NCBI GenBank assembly: GCA_034408725.1
Contig: JAWXCN010000224.1
Coordinates: forward strand, 1 to 11,100
Direction: 5' to 3'
DNA: 11,100 nt
Source of the DNA: Candidatus Hydrogenedentota bacterium
GTDB taxonomy: Bacteria; Hydrogenedentota; Hydrogenedentia; Hydrogenedentales; SLHB01
Within the stretch, counting starts at the first letter, position 1; every line of letters begins with the position of its first letter. The notes beneath the pieces were generated by a model. That model was given only the letters and a program-made list of their open reading frames with translations, had not been told where the DNA came from and made no database searches. Position numbers and translations under genes: made by a program. Positions 1,870 through 11,100 of the stretch are shown one piece after another.

Positions 1870-2712
1870 CTATTTGTTAGGGAAATACCGTCCGCGGATG
1901 GTGTGTGTGTTGCCGTCCAACACCGGCACAGTACGGTCCTTGGGCGTGCTGAATCCCGGCACGTCATTCCATTCAATCAGATGTTCGCCTACGAGCACGC
2001 CGGTGGCGGTCTCACCGCGCCGCATCCACGGGCCGCCGTCAATACGCCACCGGGCCTTTTTGCGCGCGCCCTTCGGTTGAATCTTGCACTTGATTGTGCC
2101 CGTGCCGTACTGCGCTTCGAGGGTGTGATTTTGATCCATGGTGAGGTACGCGATATGAAACGTCGAATGCACCTCGCCATTAAGAATCCAGCGCGCAAAC
2201 GGTTTTCCCTCATGCGAGACCGGCGCCCGCACGATGGCGTCATATGGCGTCTCATCATGAAACACGCGTTCGTATGGGGTCGTCAACGGATAGATGTCTT
2301 CGTTCAAAAACTCAATGTTCTCGTTCGGCGAGCTGGTCACCGTCAATGACACCGAGGGCGGTCCATACATAGCTTGGAAGGTCACCGGAGATGTCCCTGT
2401 CTCATACTCGACCACCAAGTCCGTTCCAAATAAAACGCCATTCTTTTGCCACTCGATAAATTCGCGCGTCTGCCATACCGCGGGTGCTTCCAGGTAAATA
2501 TCGATATGGTTATCAAAATTGTCCGTAAATGGAGTCGTAACGAGGCTCGGCGGGGAACCGTCAACTCCCATGAGAACTTGGACCCCTGAAATGGGGGACG
2601 ACTGTACGTTCAGAGGATCGTCCGCGTGTGCGACACTCAGGCCCCCAAATCCCAACCCGTAGAGTGCGAAACCAACATAAAAAACGCAAAGCCCAACACG
2701 GTGATGCATCAC
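1870..2712 (-). CDS. Putative secreted protein with two internal beta-rich repeats and a C-terminal PEGA-like domain
   Basis: 280 aa. Hydrophobic N-terminus ending AHA|DD (signal peptide). Repeats at aa ~34-117 and ~123-203 share LxVxSSP..TTP(F/Y)..AP..FxxWxxNG..AxYG. AGGAG RBS; true start may be the ATG at 2709. Confidence 0.8.
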   Translation of the reverse strand: MMHHRVGLCVFYVGFALYGLGFGGLSVAHADDPLNVQSSPISGVQVLMGVDGSPPSLVTTPFTDNFDNHIDIYLEAPAVWQTREFIEWQKNGVLFGTDLVVEYETGTSPVTFQAMYGPPSVSLTVTSSPNENIEFLNEDIYPLTTPYERVFHDETPYDAIVRAPVSHEGKPFARWILNGEVHSTFHIAYLTMDQNHTLEAQYGTGTIKCKIQPKGARKKARWRIDGGPWMRRGETATGVLVGEHLIEWNDVPGFSTPKDRTVPVLDGNTHTIRGRYFPNK

Positions 2713-2945: not shown

Positions 2946-4484
2946 ATGCGCGCCGAAAGCAAAACGGGACACGACCTAATTCAAACCTTTGGCCTGATCG
3001 CCGGACCAGCCGCTTTTTTCATCACACTCTCGCTTCCCGCCGCTGACGGCCTGTCTGAACCCGCGCAACGCGTCGCGGCGGTTGCATTGTTGATGGGTAT
3101 CTGGTGGGTGACGGAGGCCGTCCCCATTGCCGCGGCATCCTTGCTGCCCCTCGCGCTGTTTCCCCTGCTTGGGGTATTGCCTGCGGTAGCGACGTCCGCC
3201 TGCTACGGCGATTCCACGATATTTCTCTTTGCCGGCGGCTTTTTCATCGCGATGGCAATGCAACAGTGGCGGCTCCATGAACGGCTGGCGCTGCATGTCA
3301 TCGGCATCACCGGCACGAACCCTTGCCGGCTCGTGCTGGGTTTCATGATTGCGTCGGCCAGTGTTTCCTTGTGGATATCGAATAGCGCAACCACGATGAT
3401 GATGATCCCAATAGCCCTGGCAGTCATCCAGGAATTTGAACGAGACGGAGAAGCGGCCTGGATCGGCGCGTTTGGTACATCGGTCATGCTTGGAATCGCG
3501 TACGCCTCGAGCATTGGCGGCGTTGGAACAATTGTAGGAACCGCGCCGAACGTCATTTTCGTGGGCCAATTCGCAAAACTGTTCCCGGATGCCCCACGCA
3601 TTACTTTCGGCCAGTGGATTCTTTTTGGCATACCTCTTGTCGTCGTGTTCATTCCTCTCGCCTGGTTCATATTGGTTCGAATCGTATACCGGCTCCCAAA
3701 TAACAGCGACAACGATTCGTTGGGCCTCCATATCATCCGGAAAAAGCTCGCCGATCTCGGCCCGATGGGCCGGGGCGAAAAGATTGTCGCGACAGTATTT
3801 GTGCTAACTGCGCTCGGCTGGGTGTTCCGTCAGGATATTCCCGTGGGCGGTTTTACAATACCCGGATGGACCGGCCTGATTCCCACGGCAAAAGGGGTTG
3901 AAGACGGCACGGTCGCCATCATCGGGGCCATGCTACTTTTCATGATTCCCGTGAATCTGCGCGAAGGCAAATTTGCACTCGAATGGGAATGGGCAAAACG
4001 CATTCCATGGGGCACGCTGCTCTTGTTCGGCGGCGGAATGGCGCTCGCGGAAGGGTTCAAAGTCACTGGTCTCGCCGAATGGGTAGGCGGGCATCTTGAC
4101 GGAATACGCGGGTTACATCCGTTAGTAATGGTTTTTCTGATTGCGGTGGGCGTCATCATTCTGACCGAATTCATGTCAAACACGGCGCTGACCATGCTAA
4201 TGGTGCCTTTACTCGCCGTAGCCGGTCCCAGCGTCCTACATGTCCACCCGTTATTTGTGCTTGTCCCCGCGGTGTTGAGTGCGTCGCTCGGGTTCATGAT
4301 GCCCGCGGGCACGCCGCCGAATGCGTTGGTATTTGGCACCGGCTACATCACCATCCCGCAGATGATGCGCGCTGGAATCGTACTGAACATTGTGGGCATT
4401 ATTTTGGTGACGATATTGGCCTATTTCGTTATCGTGCCGGTATTTGGAATTGACATCCACACAGTGCCAGATTGGGCCCGGTAG
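2946..4484 (+). CDS. DASS/SLC13 family sodium:dicarboxylate (or sulfate) symporter
   Basis: 512 aa, many hydrophobic segments. Motifs WWVTEAVP, SLWISNSATT, ASSIGGVGTIVGTAPN, LTEFMSNTA, FMMPAGTPPNALVF match SdcS/VcINDY-type transporters. Confidence 0.93.
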   Translation: MRAESKTGHDLIQTFGLIAGPAAFFITLSLPAADGLSEPAQRVAAVALLMGIWWVTEAVPIAAASLLPLALFPLLGVLPAVATSACYGDSTIFLFAGGFFIAMAMQQWRLHERLALHVIGITGTNPCRLVLGFMIASASVSLWISNSATTMMMIPIALAVIQEFERDGEAAWIGAFGTSVMLGIAYASSIGGVGTIVGTAPNVIFVGQFAKLFPDAPRITFGQWILFGIPLVVVFIPLAWFILVRIVYRLPNNSDNDSLGLHIIRKKLADLGPMGRGEKIVATVFVLTALGWVFRQDIPVGGFTIPGWTGLIPTAKGVEDGTVAIIGAMLLFMIPVNLREGKFALEWEWAKRIPWGTLLLFGGGMALAEGFKVTGLAEWVGGHLDGIRGLHPLVMVFLIAVGVIILTEFMSNTALTMLMVPLLAVAGPSVLHVHPLFVLVPAVLSASLGFMMPAGTPPNALVFGTGYITIPQMMRAGIVLNIVGIILVTILAYFVIVPVFGIDIHTVPDWAR

Positions 4485-4760: not shown

Positions 4761-6758
4761 ATGGCGGAGAAGCAACGGCAAGCGCATCCCGGAGACGCGC
4801 TTGTCAAAAGTGACATCATCACGCGTGAAGAGTTAGATCACGCCAAGGCGCGAGAGACGCAATCCGGCGTGCCCTGGTACCGCTCGTTGCTGCAGGTTGG
4901 CAAAGTAACCCTGGACATGGTTGACCAGGGCTTGCGGACGGAGATTCATGTTCCCGGAATGAGCAGTGGCTCGAAACCCAAGGAGCAGGCTTCCTTGGGA
5001 GAGGCGCTGCTGAATATCAAGGCCATCACCAAGGAGCAGCTCGCGGACGCCCTTGCCGAACAAAAAAGCACGGGGCGGTTCCTAGGCGAGATTCTGATGG
5101 GTCGCGGACAGGTTACCGGCCGCACAATAAAGGTCGCTCTCGCCAAACAATCCGGTTTGGAATACAGCGAATTGGATGAAACCCCGAGTTATCAACACGC
5201 GCTGGATGCTGTCCCCGAAAGCGTTGCGCTGAAGTACCAGATGGTTCCCGTGCAACTCGAAGGGGACCGGCTCTCCTGCCTTATCAACAACCCGCAACTG
5301 CGAAACAGCATTGGCGATCTCGGGGTCATCCTGGGTAAACGCATTCATCCAATGGTGACGACGTGCGACGATATTAAGGCGGAAATAAAAGCACGCTACA
5401 AGGGGAAGTCGCAGATTGCGGCATCGCGCAAGGGCGCCGTACCGGAAGAACCAGCGCTCACGGTGAAAAAAGAAAAGGACCGCACCGACGGATCAAAAGC
5501 CAAGGGTAATATGGGCAATAACAAGCCCTCAGCCAAGGAGGAGAAAGCAGCCGTGGCGACAGTTCAGGAACCGAGGGAAAAGCGCAGGTTTGATGAAATA
5601 GCAAAAGAGGCGCAGGGCGCGCCCGTCATCAAACTGGTATCGACCATTATCGAAGGCGCGATTAATTCCGGCGCCACCGATGTGCACATGGACCCGCAGG
5701 AACCGGAGATGCGAGTGCGATACCGAATTGACGGCGTGCTGCACGACGTCATGAGCATTGCGCCCGAAATCGAGGCGGCAGTCATTTCCCGCATCAAGAT
5801 TATGTCGGACCTAGACATCACCGAAACGCGGCGCCCGCAAGATGGTCATATTCGTATCGAGTCAAAGGCCGGCGAGTATGACGTGCGCGTCGCCACTTTG
5901 CCGACGTACCTCGGCGAGCGCGTGGTACTAAGGCTGCTGGATCAGGCCAGCGTACTCGCCGGCATCAAGGACCTCGGACTCGAGTCCGAGGACGAGAAGA
6001 TTCTCACCCGCATGGTTGGACAACCCTATGGCATGATCCTCGTCACCGGACCGACGGGAAGCGGAAAAACGACAACCCTCTACGCCGCGCTAAACCAGAA
6101 AAACGTCCTGACCGACAGCATAGTCACCATTGAAGACCCCGTGGAATACCAGCTTTCCGGGATCAACCAGGTGCAAATAGACCCTGACATCGAAGTGACA
6201 TTCGCGTCCACGTTGCGCGCGTCTTTACGGCAGGACATCGATGTGCTGCTTGTCGGCGAAATCCGGGATGCTGATACCGCGCGCATCGCGATTCGGGCCG
6301 CCATGACGGGCCACCTGGTGTTCAGCACACTCCATACAAACGATGCGCCAGAGGCAATTTCTACCCTTCGTAACATGCAAGTCCCGTCGTATTTGATTGC
6401 CAGCGCGCTGACTACGATTGTCGCGCAACGTCTCATTCGTAAGATTTGTCCGGAATGTCGTGAAGCCTACGCCCCCCCCAAGCCCCTGCTAAAGTCGCTG
6501 CACCTCCCCGAGACGACTAAAAAATTGTATCGCGGAAAAGGCTGCGATTCCTGTTATCACACAGGCAACAAGGGCCGTACCGGCATCTTTGAAATTGTCG
6601 AGATTACCCCTGAAATTCGAAAAATGATTGCCGCGGACGCGCCTATCGAGTCCATCACGAAAACCGCCAAACTCAAAACTATGGCGGACCGGTGCCGGCA
6701 AAAAGTCAAGGATGGGGTGGTCACCGCGGAAGAATTCTTGCGCGTCATTCGGACGTAG
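4761..6758 (+). CDS. GspE/PilB family secretion/type IV pilus assembly ATPase with N-terminal MshEN-like repeats
   Basis: 665 aa. Walker A GPTGSGKTT, Asp box TIEDPVE, Walker B LLVGEIRD, His box TGHLVFSTLHTN, Zn-binding CPEC...CDSC, RYRIDG, RRPQDG. GGAGG RBS. Confidence 0.95.
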   Translation: MAEKQRQAHPGDALVKSDIITREELDHAKARETQSGVPWYRSLLQVGKVTLDMVDQGLRTEIHVPGMSSGSKPKEQASLGEALLNIKAITKEQLADALAEQKSTGRFLGEILMGRGQVTGRTIKVALAKQSGLEYSELDETPSYQHALDAVPESVALKYQMVPVQLEGDRLSCLINNPQLRNSIGDLGVILGKRIHPMVTTCDDIKAEIKARYKGKSQIAASRKGAVPEEPALTVKKEKDRTDGSKAKGNMGNNKPSAKEEKAAVATVQEPREKRRFDEIAKEAQGAPVIKLVSTIIEGAINSGATDVHMDPQEPEMRVRYRIDGVLHDVMSIAPEIEAAVISRIKIMSDLDITETRRPQDGHIRIESKAGEYDVRVATLPTYLGERVVLRLLDQASVLAGIKDLGLESEDEKILTRMVGQPYGMILVTGPTGSGKTTTLYAALNQKNVLTDSIVTIEDPVEYQLSGINQVQIDPDIEVTFASTLRASLRQDIDVLLVGEIRDADTARIAIRAAMTGHLVFSTLHTNDAPEAISTLRNMQVPSYLIASALTTIVAQRLIRKICPECREAYAPPKPLLKSLHLPETTKKLYRGKGCDSCYHTGNKGRTGIFEIVEITPEIRKMIAADAPIESITKTAKLKTMADRCRQKVKDGVVTAEEFLRVIRT

Positions 6759-6933: not shown

Positions 6934-7481
6934 TGTGGATAAGGTGTGGATAAGTGGATGTGTCCGGTCTGAAGCAAACGTTATTCCCACCTTGGTTAAC
7001 CCGCGAAAATCCGTATCAATACGGCGCACCAAAAGGTTTTTATACTTTTAGGTGTTGGACCGTTAAACGGCATAAGTATCTGCAATCATTTTGTTTATGG
7101 GATAAATAGTTGGATACTTTATAGCTCAACAATAGGGTTGGTGAATTCCATTCTCTTTCGAGAATTGAATGAGGGATATTCAACCGGAGGTGTTATAAGT
7201 CTATTAAGTAGTGTGTGGATAAGTGATCTGGAAACGAAGTGTGAAGTAGATAGGGGATAAGTCTCAGAACCTGGTGGAAAAGCTGTTGGCTTATCCACTA
7301 AATAAGTCTCAATATGGCATCTGGGACGCCGAACAATCCGAACATCGGGGATGAGATGAAACACGGGAACAATCAACTCACAACTCATTCACCTATTTTT
7401 TCCAATCAGAGCATGGCTCCGAACCACATATCCACAGTTTCCATATCTCCTACTAAGACGGCTACTGTATCTATATATATT
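6934..7481. other. oriC: Candidate chromosomal replication origin (oriC)
   Basis: Perfect TGTGGATAA boxes at 6934-6942, 6945-6953, 7214-7222. Near matches at 6981-6989, 7252-7260, 7273-7281, 7291-7299, 7428-7436. Trio-like tract 7451-7465 and TATCTATATATATT at 7468-7481. AT-richer than flanking genes and directly upstream of dnaN. Confidence 0.85.
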
Positions 7482-7538: not shown

Positions 7539-8645
7539 ATGAAGATTCGTATTCCCAGGCAGGACTTGCTCGAAGCAGTCAACAAAGTAAAGACCGTTGT
7601 TTCACCGAAATCAGCCTTGCCGATCCTGTCGCATATTCTCATTGAAGCAGAGGACAACAGCCTCAAGCTCAGCGCGACCGATCTAAAAGTCAGTATTGAA
7701 TGCACAGTGGACTGTACGGTGACCGAGCCCGGATCACTTACCGTGTCGTCGCAACGTCTGTCCTCAATCCTTACGGAGCTGCCGGAAGGCGAAATTTCGC
7801 TTGACCTGGCCGGAAACAATGTAATCAACCTCCAATGTGGCAAGATTAAAACCAAGCTGTTCAGTATGAGCGCGGACGAGTTTCCGCCGGTCCGGACTTT
7901 CGAGGGGGTGGAACCGCTGGTCATGGACCAAAAAGTGCTCAAGAAAATGTTCCAGAAGACCAGTTTCGCGATTTGTTCGGACCAAGCCCGGTATAACCTC
8001 ACCGGATTGCTGTGCGAGCTGGCCGACGGAAAATTTACGGCGGTTGCGACGGATGGCCGTCGAATGAGCCTCTATTCAGAAAAAGAAGGCATTCCCAAGG
8101 GTGTAAACATCAAAGTAATCATTCCCGGCAAAATGATTACCGAGCTCGAACGCCTGCTCAGTGATTCCGGAGAGGTGCAGGTATTTCTCGATGAAAGCCA
8201 GGCAGCTTTCCAGTTTGATTCCTTACGCCTCGTAACCGCGCTTATCGAAGGGAACTTTCCAAATTACGACATGGTCATTCCAAAGAAACACGACAAGGAA
8301 GGCGTTATTCTTACATCGACCTTCATGGAAGCCATGCGCCGTACACGCACGATGACGAACGACAAATTCAACTCGGTCAGGGTAACGGTGAATGGCCCTT
8401 TGATGACGCTTAATGTTGTTACGCCTGAAGTGGGTGAATACGAAGAAGAGTTGGAGTGTGAATTTGATGGTGGAGCCATCGATATAGCCTTTAACCCTGA
8501 TTTTGTGATCGAAGTGTTGCGCCGCATCGAAACAGAAAAACTCAGTTTGGTGCTGAAGGATGGGTCAAGCCCCGGACTTCTAAAACCTTTCGAAGAAAAA
8601 TCTTCGCATCAATACCTTAACGTAATCATGCCGATCCGAATTTAG
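7539..8645 (+). CDS. dnaN: DNA polymerase III subunit beta (sliding clamp)
   Basis: 368 aa. PILSHIL, LSATDL, ADEFPP, RYNLTG, VATDGRRM, IIPGK, LIEGNFPNY, IAFNPDF, C-terminal VIMPIRI. GGAG RBS. Confidence 0.98.
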   Translation: MKIRIPRQDLLEAVNKVKTVVSPKSALPILSHILIEAEDNSLKLSATDLKVSIECTVDCTVTEPGSLTVSSQRLSSILTELPEGEISLDLAGNNVINLQCGKIKTKLFSMSADEFPPVRTFEGVEPLVMDQKVLKKMFQKTSFAICSDQARYNLTGLLCELADGKFTAVATDGRRMSLYSEKEGIPKGVNIKVIIPGKMITELERLLSDSGEVQVFLDESQAAFQFDSLRLVTALIEGNFPNYDMVIPKKHDKEGVILTSTFMEAMRRTRTMTNDKFNSVRVTVNGPLMTLNVVTPEVGEYEEELECEFDGGAIDIAFNPDFVIEVLRRIETEKLSLVLKDGSSPGLLKPFEEKSSHQYLNVIMPIRI

Positions 8646-8721: not shown

Positions 8722-9507
8722 CTAATACACCCTCGCGCTTATTCCGCGGCCAATATCTTCGATGATGCGCTTTGCGGCATCGGGCCTATTGGCACTATTT
8801 CGAATTGGCCTGCCAACAACAATGTAATCCGCGCCGTCTTTTATAGCCTGGAATGGGGTGCATGGACGTTTATGATCGTCAGTGCCCAATCCCTCGGGTC
8901 GAATACCCGGACAAATAAGGATCGGGTTCTTATCCACGAAATGTTGTCGTAGCGCGCCAACATTCTCCCCTGACGTAATTAAACCATCGCATCCCATCTG
9001 TAAGGCAGATTCCGCGCGGGCTTCAATATATCGCTCGATTGTTGCGAATGGCCGGCCTTCCCCTACAACTCCGAGCTTGTGAAAATCCTGCCCATTCAGG
9101 CTCGTCAAAACCGTAATCTGAAAAATTTTGGGTAGCGCATTCTCACCCCGGCCATCTACCGCGGCCCTCGCGGTCGCCTCGGAGCCGTGAATAGTGACGA
9201 ACTCCACGTTCAGAGCCGCCATTTGTCTCATGGCCCTCGTTATCGTCTCGACTACATCGTCCATCTTAAGGTCGAAGAAAACTTTATGTCCGCGTTCATG
9301 AAGCGCCTTAATCGCATCGAGTCCAGCCGACAAAAACAACTCGAAACCCACCTTGAAGAAAGAGACCGATCCTTCGAGGCTGTCGACAAGTTCCAGGGCT
9401 TCTGAAAGATTATTGAAGTCCAGCGCGACGATTAGCCGCTCGCCGGGAGTTACATGGTTTTCCTCATGTTTATCGTGACGGCTGGTATCTTTGCTCATAG
9501 ATGGCAT
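8722..9507 (-). CDS. pyrF: Orotidine-5'-phosphate decarboxylase
   Basis: 261 aa. RLIVALD, FFKVG, DxKxxD (DLKMDD), VTIHG, TVLTS, PGIRP, GADYIVVGRPI. Confidence 0.92.
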   Translation of the reverse strand: MPSMSKDTSRHDKHEENHVTPGERLIVALDFNNLSEALELVDSLEGSVSFFKVGFELFLSAGLDAIKALHERGHKVFFDLKMDDVVETITRAMRQMAALNVEFVTIHGSEATARAAVDGRGENALPKIFQITVLTSLNGQDFHKLGVVGEGRPFATIERYIEARAESALQMGCDGLITSGENVGALRQHFVDKNPILICPGIRPEGLGTDDHKRPCTPFQAIKDGADYIVVGRPIRNSANRPDAAKRIIEDIGRGISARVY

Positions 9508-9655
9508 GTTTTTTCTTATCCCCTCGCAATCAAAGAATTCGTATGAAAACGGATTCTATCTTGCCATAGAAACGATCGTCGAGTCATTTGCGATCTTTAC
9601 TGCGAATGGCTTGAACAAAGGAGGAGAGACAACCTACATCGACTTGATTTTCCGT

Positions 9656-9883
9656 TGTGGATAACCTTCCAAAGCTAAGTTGCATGGAACTATGTTCCAC
9701 GTAAAAATTAGACGAGTAAGTCAAATTGAGCGAAAATCCTACTTTTGGTAGGCAGTTATAACTTATTTATATATAAGTGTTTACTGAGAAATATTAGGCG
9801 AACATTAGATTTTCGTGAATTTATGTGGCGCCCCCGGAAAAGGAGGAGCCTGTCTTGAACTGCGGTGAATAAGTTGTGAATAG
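9656..9883. promoter_or_regulatory. Second cluster of DnaA-box-like sites with parS-like and IHF-like sequences
   Basis: Perfect TGTGGATAA 9656-9664. GGTGAATAA 9864-9872 and TGTGAATAG 9875-9883. parS-like TGTTCCACGTAAAAAT 9693-9708. AT-rich inverted repeat ACTTAT-N6-ATAAGT 9761-9778. Confidence 0.5.
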
Positions 9884-10010
9884 AAGTGTTTTTTCGCTTT
9901 TCTGCGAAACAGATTTCCAGGATTCCAGGTTGAGGTGAACCCAGCCGGAACCGATTGAAGATTAAGATGGGGAAAACACCTTCAACCCCCACACCCGGTC
10001 ATTTTGCAGG

Positions 10011-10039
10011 TTGATTTTATCTCGCCGGAATGGCAGCAT
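10011..10039 (+). promoter_or_regulatory. Putative promoter for the riboswitch-gcvT transcript
   Basis: TTGATT-N17-CAGCAT with TG extension. Predicted start (~10046) falls a few nt before riboswitch P1. Confidence 0.45.
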
Positions 10040-10051
10040 ACCGCTGCTTTC

Positions 10052-10130
10052 GCCTGCCGTAACTGGCGATGCGACGTGGAAATAACCACGGGGGATCGGC
10101 AGGCCTTTCGAGAACGCCGTTCGCCTGGGC
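10052..10130 (+). ncRNA. ZMP/ZTP riboswitch (pfl RNA motif)
   Basis: P1 GCCTGCCG (10052-10059)/CGGCAGGC (10097-10104); junction TAACTGGCG; P2 CGTGG-AAATAA-CCACG (10075-10090); 11-nt linker; P3 GCCGTTCGCCTGGGC (10116-10130), whose loop CGCC pairs with GGCG (10065-10068) as a pseudoknot. Matches the known pfl consensus (ACUGRCG...GUGG..CCAC...GCCGnnCGYCUGGGC). Confidence 0.92.
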
Positions 10131-10201
10131 TCCCTGATGCTGTGTTGGTGCGGCACACCAGGGCACATCAGATATTTCTGTGGACCCGGAGGCGATTGAG
10201 G

Positions 10202-11100
10202 ATGCGGCGCACGCCTTTATATGATGAACACCTCGCGATGGGTGGCAAGGTCGTCGATTTTCACGGCTGGGCTTTGCCGGTGCAATTTTCGGGAATCGTT
10301 GAAGAGCACCAACACACGCGCACCAAAGCGGCGCTATTTGACTGTTCCCACATGGGCGAATTTTCCGTGCGTGGAAAAGTTGCCATGCAGGCATTCAGCG
10401 AACTCGTCTGTCTAAACCCGTTTAAGGTCCCCGTTGGTCGCGGCAAATACGGCGCGATGCTTCAGGAGGATGGTGGCATCATCGACGACGTAATCGCGTT
10501 CCGGCTCGGTGAAGAAGATTTTTTCGTTGTGACGAATGCGGGTCCGCTGGACACGGTATCGTCCAGAATGACAGCGGGAGGAGCCTCCGACGTTTCGGAT
10601 GCGACTGCGAAGATAGATATCCAGGGACCGTTCGCGCGCGACATCCTCGCGACCGAAATTCCCGCGTGTACGGAACTGAAGTATTATCAGGCGCGCCGCT
10701 CGGCCTGGAAGGGTGTGGACATCGTCCTCGCGCGCACGGGGTACACAGGCGAACTTGGCTATGAATTGTTTGTTCCCAATCGCATTGCCGTTGATTTCTG
10801 GCGCGCGTTGTTGGCGCATCCGGAAGTTAAGCCAGCGGGCCTCGGCGCTCGTGATACGTTGCGCACGGAATGTTGCTACGGACTTTCCGGTCAGGATTTC
10901 GATGCTTCGCGCACACCGTTGGAAGCAGCGATGGAATCGTTTATTGCGTGGGACAAAGATTTCGTGGGCAAATCGGCCTTGGAAGCCAAACGCGATGCAG
11001 GCGGCTACCCGATTTTGACGCCCATCAAAACGCAAGACCGGCGCGCGCCACGCCACGAGTTCGACGTCAAGCACGACGGCGAGATTGTCGGCGCCGTTAC
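10202..11100 (+). CDS. gcvT: Glycine cleavage system aminomethyltransferase T (3' end beyond window)
   Basis: Translated by hand; open to the window end: MRRTPLYDEHLAMGGKVVDFHGWALPVQFSGIVEEH..LFDCSHMGEF..GGIIDD..VVTNAG..IQGP..ARTGYTGELGYE..GLGARDTLRTE. GGAGG RBS at 10188-10192. Absent from the ORF track because no stop codon falls in the window. Confidence 0.96.
   Translation, partial: MRRTPLYDEHLAMGGKVVDFHGWALPVQFSGIVEEHQHTRTKAALFDCSHMGEFSVRGKVAMQAFSELVCLNPFKVPVGRGKYGAMLQEDGGIIDDVIAFRLGEEDFFVVTNAGPLDTVSSRMTAGGASDVSDATAKIDIQGPFARDILATEIPACTELKYYQARRSAWKGVDIVLARTGYTGELGYELFVPNRIAVDFWRALLAHPEVKPAGLGARDTLRTECCYGLSGQDFDASRTPLEAAMESFIAWDKDFVGKSALEAKRDAGGYPILTPIKTQDRRAPRHEFDVKHDGEIVGAV

What the first reader, a model, noticed from the sequence alone, without database searches (positions are those of the whole stretch)
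10052..11100. ZMP/ZTP riboswitch, not a glycine riboswitch, sits in front of gcvT
Seen: a full pfl-motif aptamer (P1, P2, P3, GGCG/CGCC pseudoknot) ends 71 nt before the gcvT ATG, and I find no glycine aptamer hallmarks. Established: gcvT operons are commonly led by glycine riboswitches, while ZTP riboswitches sense 10-formyl-THF shortage and are best known upstream of purH, pfl, fhs, folD and glyA. Inference: glycine cleavage here is induced by one-carbon/folate demand, as a source of methylene-THF, and not by glycine excess. I cannot say how rare this pairing is.
Basis: partly seen in the sequence, partly recalled or inferred. Interest (0 to 1): 0.75.

Follow-up and report, generated by a model that had tools for sequence, protein, structure and literature searches.

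The report
ZTP riboswitch controlling glycine-cleavage gene gcvT
A known type of RNA sensor for folate shortage (the ZTP riboswitch) sits in front of the glycine-cleavage gene gcvT of an uncultured bacterium, a sensible but rarely seen pairing and not a new kind of system.

Summary
Rfam places a complete ZMP/ZTP aptamer (RF01750) at 10049-10137 (+), 58.6 bits against a gathering score of 39. No glycine-riboswitch match appears in 9400-10400 even at E<=10. The aptamer's 3' motif ends at 10130, 71 nt before ATG 10202 of a true GcvT (TIGR00528 256 bits, cut-off 236). The closest GcvT relatives are Candidatus Hydrogenedentes MAG proteins.

Most likely mechanism, from folding only: a translational ON switch. 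Without ligand, 10115-10129, which includes the pseudoknot 3' strand, pairs with 10185-10209, which holds the Shine-Dalgarno GGAGG and part of the start codon. Locking the aptamer lowers the cost of opening that site from 11-13 to 6-8 kcal/mol.

The pairing is uncommon. In a sample of other ZTP loci, 0 of 79 had gcvT downstream: glyA 35, folD 17, serC-like 15, purH 8, others 4. The sample is capped and mostly Actinomycetota. The pairing is not unique: two GcvT homologues (57-59% identical) have over-extended N-termini that translate a ZTP aptamer.

Verdict: a new member of a known kind, of modest interest. I found no paper that reports the pairing, but Kim et al. 2015 could not be read.

The parts
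10049..10137 (+). ZMP/ZTP riboswitch aptamer (pfl motif): P1 10052-10059/10097-10104; P2 10063-10064/10092-10093 and 10076-10079/10086-10089; P3 10116-10118/10128-10130
   Evidence: Rfam RF01750, 58.6 bits vs gathering 39, full-length model match
10065..10068 (+). 5' strand of the pseudoknot (GGCG)
   Evidence: position in the cmscan alignment; complementary to 10122-10125
10115..10129 (+). switching strand: P3 5' strand, P3 loop and pseudoknot 3' strand (CGCC 10122-10125). In the ligand-free fold it pairs with 10185-10209
   Evidence: pairs listed for the minimum-free-energy fold; same helix
10134..10171 (+). hairpin inserted between the aptamer and the ribosome-binding site (-19.5 kcal/mol); it does not overlap the aptamer
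   Evidence: not called a terminator by the consensus scan
10185..10209 (+). ribosome-binding region: Shine-Dalgarno GGAGG 10188-10192, start codon ATG 10202-10204; complementary to 10115-10129
10202..11100 (+). gcvT, glycine cleavage system aminomethyltransferase; the first 299 codons, the 3' end lies beyond the window
   Evidence: Pfam PF01571 E 2e-72; TIGR00528 above its cut-off; 79% identity to Candidatus Hydrogenedentes GcvT

Best explanation
This is a ZTP (ZMP/ZTP, pfl-motif) riboswitch in the 5' leader of gcvT in a member of the candidate phylum Hydrogenedentota, and it most likely acts as a translational ON switch. When 10-formyl-THF is scarce, ZMP/ZTP accumulates and binds the aptamer. 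Binding locks the pseudoknot (10065-10068 with 10122-10125) and P3. That keeps 10115-10129 away from its alternative partner 10185-10209, so the Shine-Dalgarno GGAGG and the AUG are free and GcvT is made. GcvT, probably together with the rest of the glycine cleavage system encoded beyond the window, then converts glycine plus THF into 5,10-methylene-THF and refills the one-carbon pool. Without ligand the 15-pair alternative helix closes over the 10134-10171 hairpin and hides the ribosome-binding site. Shown: aptamer identity, absence of a glycine aptamer, gene identity, the complementarity, and the recurrence in relatives. Inferred: ligand response, direction of control, translational rather than transcriptional control, and co-regulation of gcvH/gcvP.
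For: Aptamer: RF01750 at 58.6 bits against a gathering score of 39, full model length. No glycine riboswitch at E<=10 in 9400-10400. GcvT passes the TIGR00528 equivalog cut-off.

OFF helix: the minimum-free-energy fold pairs 10121-10129 with 10185-10195 and 10115-10120 with 10204-10209. The duplex energy is -14.2 to -15.6 kcal/mol, depending on which flanking bases are included.

Direction of control: the cost of opening 10186-10205 is 11.3-13.1 kcal/mol in the free ensemble and 6.4-8.5 kcal/mol with the aptamer locked, for all five assumed 5' ends.

No terminator-like site was found on the + strand in 9450-10300.

Analogy: among 79 other ZTP loci, most start codons lie about 25-45 nt after the aptamer. 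Many folD and glyA leaders carry an SD-containing stretch complementary to the same CCUGGG strand. In 48 of the 76 loci that could be analysed, the best duplex segment holds an SD-like motif.

Metabolic fit: in the same sample ZTP precedes glyA 35 times, folD 17, serC-like 15 and purH 8.

Recurrence: the over-extended N-termini of GcvT homologues P0099 and P0073 can encode the 15-nt ZTP 3' motif. P0099 can also encode the 5'-domain motifs in the right order. That motif threads nowhere else in 43,285 residues. Their motif-to-start spacings are about 69 and 79 nt, against 71 nt here.
Against: Nothing was measured: there is no binding assay, no expression data and no mapped transcription start.

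In the simple base-pair probability view, the SD is not more open when the aptamer is locked (mean unpaired 0.45 free against 0.37 locked). It re-pairs with a G-U-rich stretch at 10045-10051. Only the opening-energy measure favours the ON reading.

The complementarity is only mildly better than chance: 4% of 200 composition-matched shuffles pair as well. Across the comparison loci the same control is weak, with 11 of 76 at <=5% and a median z of 0.08.

P3 has only three standard pairs, and cmscan flags four non-standard pairs.

gcvT was downstream of 0 of 79 other ZTP loci, and a GcvT-like match occurred in 0 of 120 loci by tblastn. The regulon assignment therefore rests on this locus plus two indirect cases.

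A third over-extended homologue, P0014, shows no ZTP signature.

The 10134-10171 hairpin followed by a stretch with 5 U in 8 could terminate some transcripts.
Confidence: 0.7

Rival explanations
1. The riboswitch acts on transcription. The 10134-10171 hairpin with its U-containing tail is an intrinsic terminator, and ZMP binding permits read-through.
For: The hairpin is stable at -19.5 kcal/mol and is followed by a stretch with 5 U in 8 bases (sequence). Many ZTP riboswitches use terminators (Weinberg 2010, PMC2864571, passages read). In my sample, L074 (pfl) and L048 (metH) have perfect 11-bp complements to the pseudoknot strand well upstream of the start codon.
Against: The hairpin begins after the aptamer ends and shares no base with P3 or the pseudoknot, so ligand binding has no evident way to prevent it. 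The consensus scan calls no terminator on the + strand here. The U-tract is interrupted. The sequence complementary to the pseudoknot strand lies at the Shine-Dalgarno site and not in the hairpin.
Confidence: 0.1
2. The aptamer is inactive, or it works as an OFF switch in which ligand binding favours pairing of the SD with 10045-10051 stacked on P1. In that case gcvT would not be induced by ZTP.
For: With the aptamer constrained, the predicted fold pairs 10188-10194 with 10045-10051. Rare OFF-type ZTP riboswitches have been proposed (the moeA case in Sherlock 2022, PMC9481103, passages read).
Against: All highly conserved aptamer positions are intact and the score is far above the gathering score. 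The 10045-10051 helix is rich in G-U pairs, and the region may not even be transcribed. The opening cost is lower in the locked state for every 5' end tried. Shutting off a methylene-THF source during formyl-THF shortage makes no metabolic sense.
Confidence: 0.07
3. Dual control: ZTP acts together with a glycine-responsive element not in Rfam, or with a protein regulator binding the 540-nt spacer 9508-10048. Glycine excess would then still matter.
For: The spacer between pyrF and the aptamer is long, AT-rich (G+C 0.42) and unexplained. ZTP/glycine tandem arrangements exist on other genes (Sherlock 2022, PMC9481103).
Against: No glycine riboswitch hit even at E<=10, and no other RNA family at its gathering score in the window. 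Nothing in the spacer was shown to be conserved.
Confidence: 0.13

Closest known systems
ZTP riboswitches upstream of glyA, for example the pfl element of Cupriavidus metallidurans, shown there by a glyA-lacZ fusion induced by trimethoprim (PMC10882993, passages read); also 35 of 79 loci in my sample
   Same: Same aptamer class, same expected ON response to 10-formyl-THF shortage, and a target enzyme that loads THF with a methylene unit. The ribosome-binding site lies close behind the aptamer.
   Different: The target is the T protein of the glycine cleavage system, not SHMT. The aptamer-to-start distance is 71 nt with a 38-nt hairpin inserted, against a typical distance of about 30 nt. The host is Hydrogenedentota, not Proteobacteria or Actinomycetota.
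Glycine riboswitch (gcvT motif, RF00504) upstream of gcvT operons, for example in Bacillus subtilis (reviewed in PMC7266159, passages read)
   Same: Same regulated gene and the same position in the 5' leader; both switch the gene on.
   Different: The aptamer and ligand are unrelated, and no RF00504 match exists here. The logic changes from substrate excess (glycine) to product demand (one-carbon units).
Transcriptional ZTP riboswitches of Clostridium beijerinckii pfl and Fusobacterium ulcerans (PMC10085676 and PMC7484762, seen only as titles and abstracts in the listings)
   Same: Same aptamer; the pseudoknot 3' strand is the switching element.
   Different: Those use an intrinsic terminator that overlaps the aptamer. 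Here the alternative partner is the Shine-Dalgarno region.
Tandem ZTP/glycine riboswitches of Bacillus and Oceanobacillus on a serine-biosynthesis gene (Sherlock 2022, PMC9481103, passages read)
   Same: They link ZTP sensing to serine, glycine and one-carbon metabolism.
   Different: Those carry two aptamers (ZTP ON, glycine OFF) on a different gene. Here there is one ZTP aptamer, on gcvT.

Membership tests
ZMP/ZTP riboswitch (Rfam RF01750, pfl motif) | Covariance-model score at or above the curated gathering score over the full model | tested here: met
   58.6 bits against 39, model positions 1-86 of 86, E 1e-7
ZMP/ZTP riboswitch (Rfam RF01750, pfl motif) | Two subdomains (P1/P2 and P3) joined by a GGCG/CGCC pseudoknot, with the conserved 3' motif CCGNNCGCCUGGGC | tested here: met
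   cmscan alignment: GGCG at 10065-10068, CGCC at 10122-10125, 3' motif at 10117-10130. P3 has only 3 standard pairs.
ZMP/ZTP riboswitch (Rfam RF01750, pfl motif) | Expression platform whose alternative structure uses the pseudoknot/P3 3' strand | tested here: met
   Predicted helix 10115-10129 with 10185-10209 covers the SD and part of the AUG. The opening cost falls when the aptamer is locked. This is prediction only, and the shuffle control is weak at 4%.
ZMP/ZTP riboswitch (Rfam RF01750, pfl motif) | Selective binding of ZMP/ZTP and ligand-dependent gene control | not testable with these tools
   Needs in-line probing or ITC, and reporter assays
ZMP/ZTP riboswitch (Rfam RF01750, pfl motif) | Association with purine or one-carbon (folate) metabolism genes | tested here: met
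   The downstream gene is GcvT, which produces methylene-THF. gcvT itself was not among 79 other ZTP-associated genes.
Glycine riboswitch (Rfam RF00504) | Match to the covariance model upstream of the gene | tested here: not met
   No RF00504 row at gathering score in the window, nor at E<=10 in 9400-10400
GcvT, glycine cleavage system aminomethyltransferase (TIGR00528) | Score above the equivalog cut-off, as opposed to the paralogous DmdA, SoxA and YgfZ-type folate-binding proteins | tested here: met
   256.4 bits against 235.85 with only 299 residues. DmdA, SoxA and TMAO-demethylase models score far below their cut-offs.
GcvT, glycine cleavage system aminomethyltransferase (TIGR00528) | Operon with gcvH and gcvP | not testable with these tools

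The most novel reading that the evidence does not exclude
In Hydrogenedentota the glycine cleavage system as a whole may have been rewired from the usual substrate control (glycine riboswitch or glycine-responsive regulators) to alarmone control by ZTP. This would use a lineage-specific long translational platform, with a hairpin inserted between the aptamer and the SD, conserved across GcvT genes that have diverged to 57% identity. Glycine cleavage in this phylum would then be primarily an anabolic one-carbon supply route that is switched on by folate stress.
Probability: 0.4. Interest if true: 0.45.

Novelty: new member of a known kind. Interest (0 to 1): 0.3.

Why it matters
The locus adds the glycine cleavage system to the genes that the folate-stress alarmone ZTP can switch on. 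It shows that one operon, gcvT, is controlled in different phyla by two unrelated riboswitches with opposite logic: substrate excess in one case and product demand in the other. It also gives a concrete regulatory clue about one-carbon metabolism in an uncultured phylum. On the practical side, the gcvT frame is open right through the riboswitch, and some database GcvT proteins carry N-terminal extensions that are translated riboswitch. That is an annotation artefact, but it can be used to detect riboswitches from protein data alone. Nothing here changes how ZTP riboswitches are understood to work.

Tried and rejected
1. Global tabulation of genes downstream of ZTP aptamers. These are mostly Actinomycetota, and the pattern required one sub-variant of the aptamer. 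It is therefore a biased sample and not a census. One flanked locus (L050) had no usable ORF, which leaves 79.

I could not do a covariation analysis of the aptamer or platform. I could not check for gcvH/gcvP. I could not count relatives with or without ZTP or glycine riboswitches.

3. A search with the N-terminal extension of P0099 alone found only the protein itself.

4. The 150 representatives from the exhaustive protein search and the 54 new neighbours of P0099 yielded no further informative extension. The new ones are 9-23 aa long, too short to reach an aptamer about 70 nt upstream.

5. The listing of cluster members gave no organism names for P0099, P0073 or P0014.

6. Literature: searches found no paper that pairs ZTP/pfl with gcvT or glycine cleavage as a regulated target. 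Kim et al. 2015 and Meyer et al. 2011 are not held. The supplements of Weinberg 2010 that are held as text contain no gcvT, aminomethyltransferase or glycine-cleavage term. The PDF gene lists may not have been readable.

7. The sigma-70 scan found no convincing promoter for the leader, so the transcription start remains unknown.

8. Mononucleotide-shuffle controls for SD/pseudoknot-strand pairing are not discriminating in these G+C-rich leaders.

Full report
1. Observation

A gathering-threshold cmscan of the whole window against Rfam 15 returns one hit. It is RF01750 (ZMP/ZTP riboswitch, pfl motif) at 10049-10137 on the + strand, with 58.6 bits against a gathering score of 39, E 1e-7, and all 86 model positions matched.

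The printed alignment places the structural elements as follows:
- P1 at 10052-10059/10097-10104.
- The two-pair P2 base at 10063-10064/10092-10093.
- The P2 hairpin at 10076-10079/10086-10089.
- The pseudoknot strands at 10065-10068 (GGCG) and 10122-10125 (CGCC).
- P3 at 10116-10118/10128-10130.

Every upper-case consensus position is matched. cmscan flags four non-standard pairs, at the outer ends of P1 and P3.

A permissive scan of 9400-10400 (E<=10, both strands) shows no glycine riboswitch. It lists only chance-level rows for unrelated families.

The ORF that follows is GcvT. Pfam GCV_T scores E 2e-72. NCBIfam TIGR00528 scores 256.4 bits against a cut-off of 235.85, even though the window truncates the protein at residue 299. 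The paralogous DmdA, SoxA and demethylase models score far below their cut-offs.

The start at ATG 10202 is supported by relatives: 115 of 122 homologous proteins in hand begin at exactly that residue.

2. Context

The window also encodes:
- DUF5131 (96-842, -).
- A short-chain dehydrogenase (888-1703, -).
- An ORF with no family match (1870-2712, -).
- A Na/sulfate-type symporter (2946-4484, +).
- A type II/IV secretion ATPase (4761-6758, +).
- dnaN (7539-8645, +).
- pyrF (8722-9507, -).

pyrF and the gcvT leader diverge across a 540-nt spacer with low G+C. The closest GcvT proteins, at 79% identity and below, are named by NCBI as Candidatus Hydrogenedentes or Hydrogenedentota MAG proteins. 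The window therefore very probably comes from that uncultured phylum.

3. Expression platform and mechanism

Folding 10110-10215 or 10045-10225 gives one dominant arrangement:
- 10121-10129 pairs with 10185-10195. The first stretch holds the pseudoknot 3' strand and the P3 3' strand.
- 10115-10120 pairs with 10204-10209.
- Together these make 15 pairs. They cover the Shine-Dalgarno GGAGG (10188-10192), the G of the AUG and the next five bases.
- This long-range helix closes over a separate hairpin, 10134-10171 (-19.5 kcal/mol).

The strand that ZMP binding must recruit into the pseudoknot and P3 is therefore the same strand that hides the ribosome-binding site. That is the logic of an ON switch.

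Quantitatively, the cost of opening 10186-10205 is 11.3-13.1 kcal/mol in the unconstrained ensemble. It is 6.4-8.5 kcal/mol when the aptamer pairs are enforced and the pseudoknot bases are blocked. This holds for five assumed 5' ends between 9950 and 10051.

There are caveats:
- In the locked model the SD is predicted to re-pair with a G-U-rich stretch at 10045-10051. Plain unpaired probabilities therefore do not rise (0.45 against 0.37).
- The transcription start is unknown.
- The duplex (-14.2 kcal/mol) is matched by 4% of composition-preserving shuffles.

The consensus scan calls no terminator on the + strand. The 10134-10171 hairpin does not overlap the aptamer, so a ligand-controlled terminator is hard to construct. 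I therefore rank translational control first and transcriptional control as a minor rival.

4. Comparison with other ZTP loci

Of the 120, 118 also carry the 3' motif within 120 nt, so the pattern is specific.

tblastn with the window's GcvT finds nothing in any of the 120 loci.

Pfam assignment of the first downstream ORF was possible in 79 of the 80 flanked loci, because L050 had no usable ORF. The counts are:
- SHMT/glyA: 35.
- folD: 17.
- Class-V aminotransferase (serC-like, followed by serA in L043): 15.
- AICARFT/purH: 8.
- metH, pfl, an MFS transporter and kdpD: 1 each.
- GCV_T: 0.

So gcvT is not a common ZTP target in this sample.

The platform can also be compared. The distance from aptamer to start codon is typically about 25-45 nt in the sample, and only 7 of 79 loci exceed 60 nt. 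Many folD and glyA leaders carry, just before the start codon, an SD-containing stretch complementary to the same CCUGGG strand. In 48 of the 76 loci that could be analysed, the best duplex segment contains an SD-like motif. The shuffle control is weak, however, with 11 of 76 at <=5%. The window uses the same principle, with a hairpin inserted.

5. Recurrence of the pairing

In the window the gcvT reading frame stays open back to TTG 10004, straight through the riboswitch. Gene callers can therefore over-extend the protein.

Searches listed 173 distinct homologue clusters. Three have N-terminal extensions of at least 34 residues:
- P0099 (414 aa, 57% identical to the window's GcvT). Its extension can encode, in the correct order, the ACYGGCG, GTGGA and ACCAC blocks (residues 15-23) and the 15-nt 3' motif GCCGNNCGCCTGGGC (residues 31-35).
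- P0073 (390 aa, 59% identical). Its extension starts inside the aptamer and encodes the same 15-nt motif at residues 3-8, using the same bases as window 10117-10134 read in another frame.
- P0014 shows no signature.

As a control, the 15-nt motif threads nowhere else in 43,285 residues of the first protein set. It threads at 2 places in 55,958 residues of the representative set.

The implied motif-to-start distances are about 69 and 79 nt, close to the 71 nt here. The ZTP-gcvT arrangement, with a long platform, therefore recurs in at least two diverged relatives. For the other homologues nothing can be said, because their gene calls start at the true start codon.

6. Literature

Weinberg et al. 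[quoted passage not shown] Its supplements that are held as text contain no gcvT term.

Sherrill-type reviews and later work describe ZTP riboswitches as activators of 10-formyl-THF supply:
- PMC7266159 (passages).
- PMC9971707 (passages).
- PMC9481103 (passages). This paper also reports ZTP/glycine tandems on a serine-biosynthesis gene, and remarks that glycine can feed THF through the cleavage system.
- In Cupriavidus metallidurans, pfl-glyA responds to trimethoprim (PMC10882993, passages).

Eight full-text searches found no paper that reports a ZTP riboswitch on gcvT. Kim, Nelson and Breaker 2015, the paper most likely to list such an association, is not held. I cannot exclude that the pairing is already catalogued there.

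7. Verdict

The regulatory reading is the best-supported one but has not been tested experimentally.

The element is a bona fide member of a known riboswitch class. It uses a known type of platform and sits on a gene that fits the known regulon logic, but that gene is unusual for the class and the host phylum is uncultured. I classify it as a new member of a known kind, with interest 0.3.

The boldest reading the evidence allows is a phylum-wide replacement of glycine-sensing control of the cleavage system by ZTP-sensing control (probability about 0.4).

Noticed in passing
window 6934-7436 (also 9656-9664): There is a cluster of DnaA boxes in the AT-rich gap just upstream of dnaN: perfect TTATCCACA at 6934, 6945 and 7214, and one-mismatch copies at 7291 and 7428. 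Window-wide there are 10 matches against 1.78 expected, and 0 of 200 shuffles reach 10. G+C falls to 0.44 in this gap. This is probably the chromosomal replication origin, with no dnaA gene directly upstream of dnaN. A further perfect box lies at 9656-9664 in the pyrF-gcvT spacer.
   Followed up: partly
window 9508-10048: The 540-nt non-coding spacer between pyrF and the riboswitch has G+C of about 0.42. It contains several short direct repeats and has no Rfam match above chance. The promoter and transcription start of the gcvT leader were not located.
   Followed up: partly
window 10004-10201; proteins P0099, P0073: The gcvT reading frame is open through the whole riboswitch, back to TTG 10004. 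In public protein sets, some GcvT entries carry N-terminal extensions that are translated ZTP aptamer. This is an annotation artefact, and it can be used to detect riboswitches from protein sequences.
   Followed up: yes
window 1870-2712 (-): This 280-aa ORF has no Pfam or NCBIfam match. It was not examined further.
   Followed up: no
loci L002, L009, L022, L030, L034, L040, L042, L043, L045, L052, L064, L072, L073, L075, L077: In 15 of 79 sampled ZTP loci, the riboswitch precedes a class-V aminotransferase (serC-like). In L043 this is followed by a phosphoglycerate dehydrogenase (serA). Most of these loci are from Solirubrobacterales and related MAGs. In these lineages ZTP appears to control serine biosynthesis.
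   Followed up: partly
loci L001, L017, L041, L079, L070: In Streptomyces and one other actinobacterial MAG, the ZTP aptamer precedes a short AICARFT-only protein of 345-385 aa. It matches only the C-terminal part of PF01808 and lacks the MGS domain of full-length PurH.
   Followed up: no
loci L012 and L053: Two pattern hits have atypical neighbours. L012 lacks the 3' pseudoknot motif and is followed by an MFS transporter 208 nt away. L053 is followed by kdpD 260 nt away. These may be orphan or degenerate aptamers.
   Followed up: no
window 9945-9962 and 10186-10203: An 18-nt direct repeat (83% identical) duplicates the SD-to-start region of gcvT about 240 nt upstream. Its meaning is unknown and it may be chance.
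   Followed up: no
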